From the IMG/VR virus record IMGVR_UViG_2551306674_000013: a stretch of 19,629 nucleotides of DNA, one strand, 5' to 3'. This document shows positions 12,001 to 15,000 of the stretch, piece after piece; position 1 is the stretch's first letter, and the number at the start of each line of letters is the position of its first letter. A program made the position numbers. Source of the stretch: a virus. Lineage: Duplodnaviria; Heunggongvirae; Uroviricota; Caudoviricetes.

Positions 12001-15000
12001 AACAGGAACAAATAGACGAAGGCATCGAAGCACTGAAAGCCGGATGTGCAGACCTGCTGTTTGACAATATCATGGAACTAACCAGTTCAGCGTTACGTGG
12101 CTGCATTATCGCGCCAACAGGCAAAAAGCTGGTGGTAAGTGACTTGTCGAACATTGAAGGCCGTATGCTGGCATGGCTGGCGGGAGAAGAATGGAAACTG
12201 AATGCATTCAGAGAGTACGACGCCGGAACGGGTCCGGACTTATATAAACTGGCGTATGCAAAAGCTTTCGATATTGCACCAGATGATGTTGATAAACACA
12301 TGCGTCAGATCGGTAAAGTCATGGAACTCGGTCTGGGTTATGGTGGTGGTGTGTCGGCCTTCATCACTTTTGCACTGGTTTACGGTCTCGATCTCGACGA
12401 GCTGGCGAACGCCGCACTACCAAACATTCCCCGCGATGTTATCCGCGAGGCGAAAAGCTGGTACGACGAATCGGTTAAACGCAAGTCAACCTACGGGCTT
12501 TCTGAACGGGTATTTATCGCCTGCGACTCACTTAAACGTCTCTGGCGCCGGGCGCATCCCGCGACCTGTGATTTCTGGTACGAACTGGAGCGCACCGTCC
12601 GCACTGCAATCGCCACACCGCAAAAAACATTGTATTGCGGTTATCTTAAAATCCGCCGCGATGGCGCGTGGCTGCGCATACAGCTACCATCAGGACGCGC
12701 TGTATGCTACCCGTCTCCGGTTATCGAAAAAGGGAATATCACCTACATGGGGGTTAACTCTTATTCGCGTAAATGGCAACGACTCAAAACCTACGGTGGA
12801 AAGCTGGTGGAGAACATCACCCAGGCGGCCGCCCGCGACATTCTGGCCGGAAACATGCCGCTTATCGAAGATGCCGGTTACAGCATTGTGCTGACGGTAC
12901 ACGACGAGGTGATCACCGAAGCACCTGACACAGAAGATTTCAACGATAAAGCGCTTTCCGCGCTTCTCTCCACTGACCCCGAATGGGCGCCCGATATCCC
13001 ACTGAACGCTGGCGGTTTTGAGGCGTACCACTACAAAAAAGATTGATATAACTCACCTTATCGAGCTATGGCGACATGCTGAATTCGAGTAAATTAAAGG
13101 AACAATACTTATGCAGGAACTAACTGAAATGCCGATCACCTATCCATACCCGAGAGAATCTTTTCCTGACTTTTTGAGGGAGTGTGGGTTCACCAATTTT
13201 TCCCACGAACAGCGTGAGACTTGTGACTGCTATCGTTTAACGAATGGCGTAATTGTTAACCTTTACACCACCCGGACCATTCAGTTTCAAGGTAACCCTC
13301 AAGAACGTCCCAATGTTGAAACTGCAATAATGACCCATTTAGGAACGCCGCCCACGGCAACACCACTAGCCGTAGAACAGCCATCTGAGCTCCCCAAAAA
13401 GATATTCATTGTTCACGGCCATGACCATACTGCAAAGGAGCAACTTGAGCTAATCCTTCATAAACTTGGATTACCAGACCATTTCATTTTGCAGAATACG
13501 GGAGGGACTGGACTCACCATTATTGAAGAGCTTGAACGTGAAATTGGGCAAGGACAAACTGCTACCCGTTTCGGGATTGTTCTTTTGACACCTGATGATA
13601 TGGGATACTCAAAGCGCGCCGGTGAAGCAGAAATCCAACCCCGCGCAAGACAGAACGTTGTACTCGAGATGGGTATGCTTCTTTCGTCCTTAGGGCGCAG
13701 CAATGTAGCAATCCTTCAGAAACAGCATCTAGAACAGCCTTCTGATGCTAACGGGATTTTGTATCTGAATTTCAACGACCATGTACGTGAAACAGTTCCT
13801 CGTCTAGTGCAACGGTTACAAAATTCTGGTTTCGAATTTACACAAGCTCAAATAGCTAACGCTTCCTCGTAATTACCCCTTATTGTTGATTACAACCCTG
13901 CATCGCGGGGTTTTTTATTTGGGAATAAAAACCCTATGTCATTTAAATACCGGGACAGTCCGCTTTATTACCGGACTGTGCGGGAGGCTTTGCACCTTGA
14001 ACAGTCCGGCGGGTACGACCGGGCGATGCAGGTCTGGGCCAAAGCGAACGTCGGTTTGATTTTTGTCTGATGCAGAACATGCGCGAAAAGCGTAAGGAGG
14101 TGGACGATGTCTAATATCGATAATAAGGGTTGGGGGTTCCCCGCTCTGTCAAAAAAAGCACATTTCTTTAATTCGGGGGAAGCCATATCACTATGCGGAA
14201 AATGGATGTTCATAGGTATCAGGATTGATGAATGGCATGACCATCCTGAGAACTGCGCTATCTGCATGAAGAAACGCAAAAAGCAGGAAGGCGAAAGCTA
14301 ATGGCCTATGAACGTGAAAACCTAATCGAAAAGCACCTCGTCGCCGAAGTGAAAAAGGCTGGCGGGGTCGCCTTTAAGTTCGTGTCACCCGCTCGCCGCT
14401 CGGTACCGGATCGCATTGTCCTGCTACCCGGCGGTCGCATCGTCTTTGTCGAATGCAAAGCGCCAGGCAAGCCACCACGGCCTGACCAGTTGCGCGAGCA
14501 TGAACGTCTGCGAAAGCTAGGCTTTACCGTGGTGGTATTAGATAGCAAAAATCTGGAGGGGATATTGTGAGTAAACGTGATGACCCACAATTGCGGGTAC
14601 GCATCCCGCAAGACTTGAAAGACACACTGGAAAAAATTTCCAGAGAAAACGACAGAACACTAACCGCCGAAATCACCCGGCGGTTACGTAAAAGTTTAGA
14701 GGATGAATCCACTATTCATTCTCAGGATTTAGCAACTTCTTAAGTTTTTCCATCACTTCAATAAGCTCGTATTTGTTTTCATAAACCCATTCGACCTGAT
14801 ACTCTCGATGGTACGTTGTCTTAAGTTTCTCGAGAAGATCCCTGAGTATGAGAATCTCATCAGCAGCTTCCTCAAACCCCCTAGATGTATGAAGTAATTT
14901 GTCCTGAAGAATAGTAGATTCCAACCGGCTAACGATCTCAGAGGTCAGTGTTCTCTTATTAGCCCGTGCTTTCTTCTCCAAAGCCTCTTTTAGCAATTCT

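What the first reader, a model, noticed from the sequence alone, without database searches (positions are those of the whole stretch)
13047..13920. Single-gene cargo inside the replication operon encoding a TIR/SLOG-like nucleotide-processing domain with an unknown N-terminal domain
Seen: ORF 13111..13872 (253 aa) has its own SD, its own downstream hairpin plus T-run (13894..13920), and hand-sampled lines are visibly AT-richer than the flanking polymerase gene. The C-terminal ~160 aa carry, in order, KIFIVHGHD / FGIVLLTPDD / RARQNVVLEMGMLLSSLGR / PSDANGILY. Established: this motif order (N-V-x-x-E-x-G with an invariant Glu) is what I remember for TIR-like/SLOG members of the N-deoxyribosyltransferase-like clan, which include NAD+/nucleotide-cleaving effectors of Thoeris, CBASS and Pycsar immunity but also nucleoside 2-deoxyribosyltransferases. 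Inference: a prophage-borne single-protein nucleotide-targeting effector (abortive infection or superinfection exclusion), or alternatively a phage nucleotide-salvage or DNA-modification enzyme. The N-terminal ~95 aa (YPYPRESFPDFLRECGFTNF ... GVIVNLYTTRTIQFQG) match nothing I recognise and would be the candidate sensor domain.
Basis: partly seen in the sequence, partly recalled or inferred. Interest (0 to 1): 0.75.

Follow-up and report, generated by a model that had tools for sequence, protein, structure and literature searches.

The report
Prophage TIR defence gene, new sensor
A small accessory gene inserted after the DNA polymerase gene of an E. coli prophage encodes a probable single-protein anti-phage "suicide switch": a conserved NAD-destroying TIR domain joined to a fast-evolving sensor domain whose fold resembles the RNA/DNA-hybrid-binding domain of RNase HIII.

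Summary
ORF 13111-13872 (253 aa) has its own Shine-Dalgarno sequence, a downstream hairpin plus T-run, and lower GC than polA (0.455 vs 0.540).

Residues 97-222 match Pfam PF10137 (CAP12/Pycsar-type TIR, E 2.9e-31). Glu186 is invariant and aligns with the catalytic Glu motif of TIR-STING. The whole protein matches PADLOC candidate family PDC-S35 (E 7e-109), which its authors list as untested.

It is true cargo. 158 E. coli genomes carry this polymerase, but only 37 carry this allele and 10 carry divergent alleles. Elsewhere polA abuts the next gene.

Best reading: a single-protein, sensor-activated NADase for abortive infection or superinfection exclusion. It works like SpbK and E. coli TIR-V/IX but is not homologous to SpbK. 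The trigger, expression in lysogens and enzymatic activity are untested. A published E. coli TIR screen may already have tested this family; I could not check.

The parts
13035..13930 (.). Inserted cargo cassette relative to TIR-less relatives. It replaces the last four polA codons and ends just before the ANR start codon.
   Evidence: Alignment A1 of the window against CREC-544, F11 and phage 689R2. GC of the cassette is 0.440.
13097..13101 (+). Shine-Dalgarno-like AAGGA, 9 nt upstream of the ATG.
   Evidence: Read directly from the sequence.
13111..13872 (+). Gene for a 253-aa PDC-S35-family protein (TBP-like N-domain, linker, TIR domain).
   Evidence: ORF list and translation. PADLOC PDLC05003 E 7.1e-109 over the full length. 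PHROG 16442 E 1.1e-108. Annotated as WP_001157067.1 'TIR domain-containing protein' in E. coli IAI1.
13111..13350 (+). N-terminal TBP-like domain (residues 1-80; alpha-beta4-alpha), the candidate sensor.
13351..13395 (+). Low-complexity, poorly conserved linker (residues 81-95).
   Evidence: pLDDT below 50 for residues 80-92. Mean pairwise identity 16%.
13396..13869 (+). CAP12/Pycsar-type TIR domain (residues 96-253), the predicted NADase effector.
   Evidence: PF10137 E 2.9e-31. PDB sequence hits Cap12 7un8 and 9lmq, and PycTIR 8jsj. Foldseek top hit TIR-STING 9lmq, probability 1.0. Mean pairwise identity 73%.
13666..13668 (+). Codon GAG for Glu186, the predicted catalytic glutamate.
   Evidence: Invariant in 58 homologs. 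Aligns with the E of the VVFEFG motif of Cap12/TIR-STING. The catalytic role of that Glu is taken from the literature on TIR-STING (10.64898/2026.04.30.722052).
13894..13920 (+). Intrinsic-terminator-like hairpin (AACCCTGCATCGCGGGGTT) plus T-run.
   Evidence: Terminator scan. It lies inside the inserted cassette.
13936..14114 (+). ANR-family regulator remnant directly downstream. It carries a 40-nt deletion relative to intact ANR genes of TIR-less relatives.
   Evidence: Alignment A1. Annotated 'frameshifted' in IAI1.

Best explanation
The gene is an accessory ('moron'-like) cargo of a lambdoid-type prophage integrated beside yfhL. It encodes a single-protein anti-phage defence candidate of the PADLOC PDC-S35 family.

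Proposed mechanism (inferred): in the resting state the protein is inactive. On infection by another phage, the fast-evolving N-terminal TBP-like domain binds a multivalent phage-derived ligand. That ligand is either a nucleic-acid intermediate such as an RNA/DNA hybrid, as its RNase HIII and RnlA relatives bind, or an oligomeric phage protein such as a portal, as SpbK and TIR-V/IX sense. Binding clusters the C-terminal Cap12/PycTIR-type TIR domains so that composite active sites form around Glu186. NAD+ is then hydrolysed and the infection aborts, which protects the lysogen population and the prophage.

Shown here: domain identities, conserved catalytic motif, cargo status, standalone genomic contexts, unequal evolutionary rates of the two domains, and sharing of the N-domain with other effector types.

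Inferred: NADase activity, oligomerisation, the nature of the trigger, the defence phenotype, and expression in the lysogen.
For: TIR effector:
- PF10137 hit at 108 bits.
- Glu186 is invariant and aligns with the Cap12 catalytic motif.
- Foldseek top hits are TIR-STING.
- The TIR domain is under strong purifying selection, dN/dS 0.03-0.05.

Defence candidate:
- Full-length PDC-S35 match.
- PDCs derive from genes embedded in BREX/DISARM/RM systems (10.1101/2024.01.29.577857).
- Distant homologs are standalone genes next to Mrr, a reverse transcriptase, DUF4062 and toxin-antitoxin pairs, or inside integrative elements, with no conserved partner.

Cargo:
- Present in 37 + 10 of 158 prophages with this polymerase.
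- Exact insertion junctions are mapped.
- Neighbouring slots hold SIR2, DUF4145/HEPN or Nmad5 in relatives.

Sensor:
- N-domain identity is 37% against 73% for the TIR domain. Window vs allele 2 at the same slot: 49% against 89%. dN is 0.49 against 0.10.
- The same N-domain is fused to the PADLOC dCTPase defence effector (P0197, E 7e-173), to a multi-pass membrane region (P0264) and to unknown domains.

Precedent for the logic:
- SpbK (PMC11984713, PMC12847820).
- E. coli single-protein TIR-V/VI/IX (PMC11350192).
Against: - There are no experimental data for this family. PADLOC lists it among '145 untested' candidates.
- No consensus promoter precedes the gene. In all 40 close viral loci it sits about 60 nt after polA. 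It may therefore be transcribed with early/replication genes rather than in the lysogen, which is unusual for a lysogen-protecting gene.
- The TIR part of the AF2 model has only moderate confidence, pLDDT about 55-88.
- N-domain dN/dS stays below 1, so positive selection is not demonstrated.
Confidence: 0.68

Rival explanations
1. The protein serves the phage's own lytic programme. It would be co-expressed with polA and act in nucleotide or NAD metabolism, host takeover or counter-defence, for example by destroying NAD-derived immune signals or supplying ADP-ribose-derived products. It would not protect the lysogen.
For: - It sits about 60 nt after polA in all 40 close viral loci, even where polA has diverged to about 74%.
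- No own consensus promoter was found.
- In Serratia-like lineages its divergence is similar to that of the backbone.
Against: - It is absent from about 70% of E. coli prophages with the same replication genes, so it is not needed for replication.
- Homologs occur outside phages, in defence-island-like and ICE contexts.
- There is no hit to deoxyribosyltransferase or salvage families.
- Its N-domain is shared with a known abortive-infection effector.
Confidence: 0.12
2. The TIR domain is a signal generator, like Thoeris ThsB. It would make a cADPR-type messenger for an effector encoded elsewhere.
For: TIR domains of Thoeris types make signalling nucleotides (10.64898/2025.12.03.692087). SpbK also makes some N1-cADPR (PMC12847820).
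Against: - No conserved neighbouring effector in any of nine different contexts.
- No PF08937 (ThsB) hit.
- The nearest characterised relatives (Cap12, PycTIR) are terminal NAD-depleting effectors.
Confidence: 0.06
3. The TBP-like domain docks the protein on RNA/DNA hybrids or other duplexes, and the TIR domain acts on nucleic acid (nuclease or 2',3'-cNMP-synthetase-type activity, as reported for some plant TIRs; my own knowledge) rather than on NAD+.
For: - Both characterised relatives of the N-domain position nucleic-acid substrates for a linked nuclease: RNase H3 (PMC4132731) and RnlA TBP1 (PMC8266594).
- The conserved Y52/T54/T56/G61 pattern has the same spacing as the hybrid-contacting Tyr43/Ser45/Ser47/Gly52 of RNase H3.
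Against: - All characterised PF10137-clade TIRs are NADases.
- The same N-domain is attached to a dCTP deaminase and to a membrane region, which fits a sensor better than a substrate-positioning role.
Confidence: 0.07
4. The gene is decaying or neutral hitch-hiking cargo with no current function.
For: The downstream ANR gene is a pseudogene in carriers of this allele.
Against: - The ORF is intact in 37 genomes and in isolated phages.
- TIR-domain dN/dS is 0.03-0.05, and 62 columns are invariant across distant taxa.
Confidence: 0.03

Closest known systems
PADLOC phage defence candidate PDC-S35 (model PDLC05003)
   Same: Full-length profile match (residues 10-253 to positions 3-245 of 245, E 7.1e-109). 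Single-gene system. Same two-domain layout.
   Different: Nothing differs structurally: this gene is a member. The family itself is only a bioinformatic candidate, with no published test or mechanism found.
SpbK of Bacillus subtilis ICEBs1 (single-protein TIR NADase activated by the SPbeta portal YonE)
   Same: [quoted passage not shown] It is carried on a mobile element and acts alone. Activation is by sensor-driven TIR clustering (PMC11984713, PMC12847820).
   Different: The SpbK sensor is a 4-helix bundle, whereas this one is an alpha-beta4-alpha TBP-like domain. The SpbK TIR is closest to the SPARTA TIR and is not detected by the family profile even at E<=10. It is an analogue, not a homologue beyond the TIR superfamily.
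[quoted passage not shown] 2024, PMC11350192)
   Same: E. coli single-protein TIR defences with similar C-terminal TIR domains and dissimilar N-termini. The triggers are phage structural proteins (portal, tail fibre).
   Different: Identity with any of them could not be checked, because the accession list is in a supplement that is not held. TIR-V and TIR-IX share 'very low sequence similarity', unlike the alleles compared here (89% in the TIR domain).
CBASS Cap12 (TIR-STING, TIR-SAVED) and Pycsar PycTIR effectors
   Same: Same TIR subfamily (PF10137). Shared catalytic motif. Best sequence and structure matches.
   Different: No STING, SAVED or cNMP-binding domain, and no cyclase gene nearby. 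NCBIfam Cap12 equivalog score is 34.8 against a cut-off of 450.
RNase HIII N-terminal domain and the RnlA/LsoA TBP-like domains
   Different: It is attached to a TIR domain instead of an RNase H or HEPN nuclease. Sequence similarity is marginal. Nucleic-acid binding is untested here.
dCTP deaminase anti-phage defence (PADLOC 'dCTPase')
   Same: Some members (P0197, P0188) carry the same N-terminal TBP-like domain in front of the kinase-like and deaminase core.
   Different: Different effector chemistry: dCTP depletion rather than NAD+ depletion.

Membership tests
Pfam PF10137 CAP12/Pycsar-type TIR domain (STIR clan) | Profile match above the curated gathering score | tested here: met
   108.4 bits against a cut-off of 24.7, residues 97-222, profile positions 1-118 of 119.
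Pfam PF10137 CAP12/Pycsar-type TIR domain (STIR clan) | Conserved catalytic glutamate | tested here: met
   E186 is invariant in 58 homologs and aligns with the E of VVFEFG in Cap12 7un8 and 9lmq.
Pfam PF10137 CAP12/Pycsar-type TIR domain (STIR clan) | TIR (flavodoxin-like) fold | tested here: met
   Foldseek top hits are TIR-STING 9lmq and 9lmr, probability 1.0, E 6e-4. The model confidence for this domain is only moderate.
Pfam PF10137 CAP12/Pycsar-type TIR domain (STIR clan) | Oligomerisation-dependent NAD+ hydrolysis | not testable with these tools
   Requires biochemistry.
PADLOC PDC-S35 | Full-length match to the family model | tested here: met
   PDLC05003 E 7.1e-109, positions 3-245 of 245.
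PADLOC PDC-S35 | Single-gene system without a conserved partner | tested here: met
   Neighbours differ in E. coli, Serratia, Salmonella, Vibrio, Vreelandella and metagenome contexts.
PADLOC PDC-S35 | Anti-phage activity | not testable with these tools
   The source describes the PDC set as untested. No paper mentions PDC-S35.
SpbK | N-terminal 4-helix-bundle portal-binding domain | tested here: not met
   The N-domain is predicted as alpha-beta4-alpha with a TBP-like fold. The SpbK N-terminal domain is a 4-helix bundle (PMC12847820).
SpbK | Detectable sequence relationship to the SpbK TIR (PDB 9PHB) | tested here: not met
   The family profile against PDB sequences at E<=10 returns only Cap12 and PycTIR (plus a chance ArgR hit at E 1.4), not 9PHB.
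SpbK | Sensor-linker-TIR single-protein architecture on a mobile element | tested here: met
   Residues 1-80, 81-95 and 96-253, in prophage cargo.
CBASS Cap12 / Pycsar PycTIR effector | Fused cyclic-nucleotide receptor domain (STING, SAVED, cNMP-binding) and an adjacent cyclase gene | tested here: not met
   No such domain was found. NCBIfam Cap12 score is 34.8 against a cut-off of 450. The neighbours are polA and ANR.
Thoeris ThsB | ThsB-type TIR (PF08937) with an adjacent ThsA-like effector | tested here: not met
   No PF08937 hit. No conserved neighbour.
RNase HIII-N / RnlA TBP-like domain (for residues 1-80) | TBP-like alpha/beta fold | tested here: met
RNase HIII-N / RnlA TBP-like domain (for residues 1-80) | Significant sequence-profile similarity | tested here: inconclusive
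   LsoA E 0.028 and RNase HIII E 0.072. RnlA_toxin in 8/30 members (best 8.9e-5) and DUF3378 in 3/30. The one member whose score is printed (the window protein, 15.9 bits) is below the RnlA_toxin gathering score of 27. One relative is pre-annotated PF15935+PF10137.
RNase HIII-N / RnlA TBP-like domain (for residues 1-80) | Binding of RNA/DNA hybrid or RNA through the exposed beta-sheet | not testable with these tools
   Only a spacing match of conserved R/K42, Y52, T54, T56 and G61 to the contact residues of RNase H3. The mapping onto Thermovibrio numbering is inferred.
Nucleoside 2-deoxyribosyltransferase (PF05014) / SLOG | Profile match | tested here: not met
   The Pfam scan at E<=1 returns only PF10137 and a weak RnlA_toxin hit.

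The most novel reading that the evidence does not exclude
The N-terminal TBP-like module is a portable pattern-recognition domain that binds a phage nucleic-acid intermediate, for example RNA/DNA hybrids at replication or transcription sites. The polymeric ligand templates TIR filament assembly. This would be a bacterial TIR immune receptor that senses nucleic acid directly. The same sensor would be wired by evolution to three different suicide effectors: an NADase, a dCTP deaminase and a membrane protein.
Probability: 0.22. Interest if true: 0.8.

Novelty: new variant of a known kind. Interest (0 to 1): 0.5.

Why it matters
Single-protein sensor-TIR NADases are a known kind of anti-phage defence. 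For this widespread family (more than 2,700 proteins found, 153 viral contigs) no function or sensor identity has been published in the literature I could search.

Three results give a concrete, cheap set of experiments on how bacterial TIR proteins recognise infection:
- The sensor is a TBP-like domain related to RNase HIII-N and RnlA.
- The same module is swapped among NADase, dCTP-deaminase and membrane effectors.
- Natural alleles with nearly identical TIR domains but roughly 50%-divergent sensors sit at one prophage slot.

The experiments are EMSA with hybrids, allele swaps and escape mutants. The locus also documents a polymerase-adjacent cargo hotspot in a common E. coli prophage lineage that carries TIR, SIR2 and HEPN-type genes.

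Tried and rejected
- Literature search for 'PDC-S35': no paper.
- SpbK homology: rejected. The profile does not detect 9PHB, and SpbK's N-domain is a 4-helix bundle.
- Identifying the gene among the E. coli TIR-I..IX systems: failed. The supplement with accessions is not held and no later paper names them.
- Mapping onto Thermovibrio RNase H3 numbering with an Aquifex bait peptide: 4py5 was not retrieved, so the mapping stays an inference from motif spacing.
- Net charge of the N-domain (mean -1.1) as an argument against nucleic-acid binding: dropped. The RNase H3 N-domain binds hybrids with few charged contacts.
- Own sigma-70 promoter: none found.
- Positive selection on the N-domain: not demonstrated. 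dN/dS is 0.17-0.26 where it can be estimated, and 0.81 from only three changes.
- PADLOC and PHROG scans of other accessory ORFs in the window: no defence hits.
- SLOG/deoxyribosyltransferase reading: no profile support.
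Full report
**1. Observation**

The ORF 13111-13872 (+, 253 aa) exists exactly as described, and every quoted peptide motif is present. An AAGGA Shine-Dalgarno sequence lies 9 nt before the ATG. 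A terminator-like hairpin (13894-13912) with a T-run follows the stop codon. The gene is AT-richer than its neighbours: GC 0.455 and GC3 0.402, against 0.540 and 0.564 for polA and 0.551 for the helicase. No sigma-70 consensus promoter precedes it.

**2. Where it sits**

The window is a prophage integrated beside yfhL, with the integrase at 17758-19002. The stretch containing the gene is 100% identical to E. coli IAI1, and the window is about 96% identical to isolated phages such as vB_EcoM-689R2.

The surrounding operon is a replication module:
- a 300-aa protein
- an HNH/NUMOD4 endonuclease
- DUF2800 (PD-(D/E)XK nuclease)
- DUF2815/Enc34-type SSB
- AntA
- a reverse-strand orphan ORF
- family-A DNA polymerase (10983-13046)
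- this gene
- an ANR remnant
- a VRR-NUC nuclease
- Rha
- an SNF2 helicase
- a primase-like gene upstream on the other strand

**3. It is cargo**

The 3' part of polA is found in 158 of 5,426 complete E. coli genomes. This gene is found in 37 of them, and divergent alleles in another 10. For four of those ten I verified from coordinates that the allele directly follows polA.

In TIR-less relatives (CREC-544, O103:H2 12009) polA is followed 5 nt later by an intact ANR-family gene. Strain F11 has a different 67-aa gene at the same spot.

A four-way alignment maps the insertion to about 13035-13930. The last four polA codons are replaced, and the cassette ends just before the ANR ATG at 13936.

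The other variable slots of the module carry defence-type or accessory genes in relatives:
- SIR2 in ECONIH2
- DUF4145/HEPN in Serratia
- Nmad5
- DNA methyltransferases

The gene is also a long-standing resident of this slot. In all 40 IMG/VR loci with a full-length relative of at least 64% identity, it lies about 60 nt after polA in the same module, even where polA is only about 74% identical. In a Salmonella prophage it occupies the SSB-polA slot instead.

**4. The C-terminal domain**

- Residues 97-222 match PF10137 (CAP12/Pycsar effector TIR) at 108 bits.
- PADLOC TIR effector and PycTIR models and NCBIfam Cap12 models match weakly, far below equivalog cut-offs.
- Against PDB sequences only Cap12/TIR-STING (7un8, 9lmq) and PycTIR (8jsj) are found. 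NVVLEMG aligns with the VVFEFG motif that contains the catalytic Glu.
- Glu186 and 61 other columns are invariant in 58 homologs from Enterobacterales, Vibrio, Halomonadaceae and Acidobacteriota.
- An AlphaFold2 model (mean pLDDT 74.6; TIR part about 55-88) has TIR-STING as its best Foldseek match.
- PF10137 belongs to the STIR clan and to a clade whose characterised members become NADases on oligomerisation (10.64898/2026.04.30.722052).
- No deoxyribosyltransferase or SLOG profile is hit.

**5. The N-terminal domain**

It is predicted with high confidence (pLDDT about 92 in the full model, 87.9 alone) as alpha-beta4-alpha.

Structure and sequence evidence for a TBP-like fold:
- Foldseek independently finds 4py5_A at probability 1.0.
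- A family profile of the domain gives marginal hits to the LsoA repeated domain (E 0.028) and RNase HIII (E 0.072), sharing a Y..TG(T/S)..QG motif.
- Pfam RnlA_toxin is hit by 8 of 30 members and DUF3378 by 3 of 30.
- One relative is pre-annotated PF15935+PF10137.

Both characterised relatives bind nucleic acid:
- The isolated RNase H3 N-domain binds only RNA/DNA hybrids. It uses its exposed beta-sheet, through Arg32, Tyr43, Ser45, Ser47, the Gly52 amide, Glu27 and His28 (PMC4132731).
- RnlA TBP1 is required for RNA substrate binding (PMC8266594).

In our family the conserved positions cluster on strands beta2-beta4: R/K42, N50, Y52, T54, T56, Q58, Q60, G61. They have the same Y/+2/+4/+9 spacing as those contacts. 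The mapping onto Thermovibrio numbering is my inference from identical spacing in the Aquifex alignment.

**6. Sensor-like behaviour**

| Comparison | N-domain | Linker | TIR domain |
|---|---|---|---|
| Mean pairwise identity across the family | 37% | 16% | 73% |
| Window vs allele 2, same slot, near-identical backbone | 49% | 20% | 89% |
| Nei-Gojobori dN, divergent allele pairs | 0.49 | – | 0.10 |
| dN/dS, alleles 2 vs 3 | 0.26 | – | 0.03 |

Positive selection is not demonstrated.

A profile search of the N-domain against 1.84 billion representative proteins finds 871 hits. Besides TIR fusions it recovers:
- P0197 (617 aa): the N-domain precedes a core that matches the PADLOC dCTPase defence model at E 7e-173 and carries a Pfam cytidine/dCMP deaminase domain.
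- P0188: a fragment of the same type.
- P0264 (428 aa): the N-domain followed by a multi-pass hydrophobic region.
- P0258: an unknown C-terminal region.
- P0185: two tandem N-domains.

A module attached to alternative abortive-infection effectors is what one expects of a sensor.

**7. Family and context**

- The whole protein matches PADLOC PDC-S35 (E 7.1e-109) and PHROG 16442, which has unknown function.
- PDC systems were nominated by 'guilt-by-embedding' within BREX, DISARM and type I RM loci. The authors explicitly call them untested (10.1101/2024.01.29.577857). DefensePredictor excluded them as unvalidated.
- More than 2,700 homologs were found.
- Distant members are standalone genes. One sits in an integrase/relaxase element of Vibrio cholerae. 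One sits beside Mrr, a TPR protein and a PemK toxin. One sits beside DUF4062, a reverse transcriptase and ParDE/Phd-YoeB pairs.
- No partner gene is conserved.

**8. Mechanism**

The best-supported reading is a single-protein, sensor-activated TIR NADase that aborts infection by other phages, or excludes them, to the benefit of the lysogen and the prophage.

Two experimentally characterised cases set the precedent:
- SpbK of ICEBs1 has the same sensor-linker-TIR layout. It is switched on when its N-terminal domain docks on the dodecameric SPbeta portal and clusters the TIR domains into filaments (PMC11984713, PMC12847820).
- The E. coli single-protein systems TIR-V and TIR-IX respond to portal proteins, and TIR-VI to a tail fibre (PMC11350192).

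SpbK is not a relative. Its sensor is a 4-helix bundle, its TIR is closest to the SPARTA TIR, and it is not detected by our family profile.

Whether our family is one of the 32 E. coli TIR clusters tested by Wang et al. could not be determined, because the accession table is not held. This is the main uncertainty about novelty.

The nature of the trigger is open. The N-domain's relatives argue for a nucleic-acid ligand such as an RNA/DNA hybrid. The precedents among single-protein TIR systems argue for an oligomeric phage protein.

**9. Open problems**

The gene's tight, promoter-less position after polA suggests co-transcription with early/replication genes. The cassette's terminator also sits upstream of the VRR-NUC and helicase genes. 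Neither point is explained by the defence model. Together they keep alive the rival that the protein serves the phage's own lytic programme.

**10. Verdict**

The new elements are:
- the identity of the N-terminal domain
- its modular reuse with other effectors
- the allelic series at a polymerase-adjacent hotspot

It is a new variant of a known kind, of moderate interest.

Noticed in passing
window 10357-10983 (- strand): A 208-aa ORF on the opposite strand in the SSB-polA slot is strongly AT-rich (GC 0.344). It has no match in Pfam, PADLOC or PHROGs, yet it is conserved in IAI1, O103:H2 and phage 689R2. Relatives carry SIR2, DUF4145/HEPN or Nmad5 genes in this slot, so it may be another orphan cargo or defence candidate.
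   Followed up: partly
window 13936-14114: The ANR-family regulator gene downstream of the cassette carries a 40-nt deletion and is annotated as frameshifted in IAI1. It is intact in TIR-less relatives and in the ECONIH2 prophage that carries allele 3.
   Followed up: partly
L015:8001-8741 vs L022:2998-3759: Alleles 2 and 3 of the gene have discordant synonymous divergence between domains: dS 0.11 in the N-domain against 0.49 in the TIR domain. This suggests recombination near the linker that shuffles sensors and effectors.
   Followed up: partly
window 6722-7240: An HNH/NUMOD4 homing-type endonuclease gene sits between the 300-aa protein gene and DUF2800, overlapping the DUF2800 start. It is absent at this position from IAI1 and phage 689R2. 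Other relatives carry HNH genes at different positions in the module (L015).
   Followed up: no
window 9478-10242 and 15376-16125: AntA antirepressor-like and Rha-like genes occupy two further variable slots. Relatives carry Bro-N, DNA cytosine methyltransferases, DUF6338 or other genes there, so the replication module has at least three cargo hotspots.
   Followed up: partly
L003:6465-6764 and L004:6465-6764 (position equivalent to window 14107-14301): TIR-less relatives encode a DUF4406 protein between ANR and VRR-NUC, where the window has a 64-aa ORF (PHROG 2358). As far as I recall, DUF4406 is a nucleoside 2-deoxyribosyltransferase-like family.
   Followed up: no
P0197 (617 aa), P0264 (428 aa), P0185 (220 aa): The TBP-like N-domain also occurs fused to a dCTP-deaminase defence core, fused to a multi-pass membrane region, and as a tandem duplicate.
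   Followed up: partly
L022:1-792: A SIR2-family protein is encoded immediately upstream of polA in the ECONIH2 prophage that also carries the TIR gene after polA. Two NAD-consuming defence-type genes therefore flank one polymerase gene.
   Followed up: no
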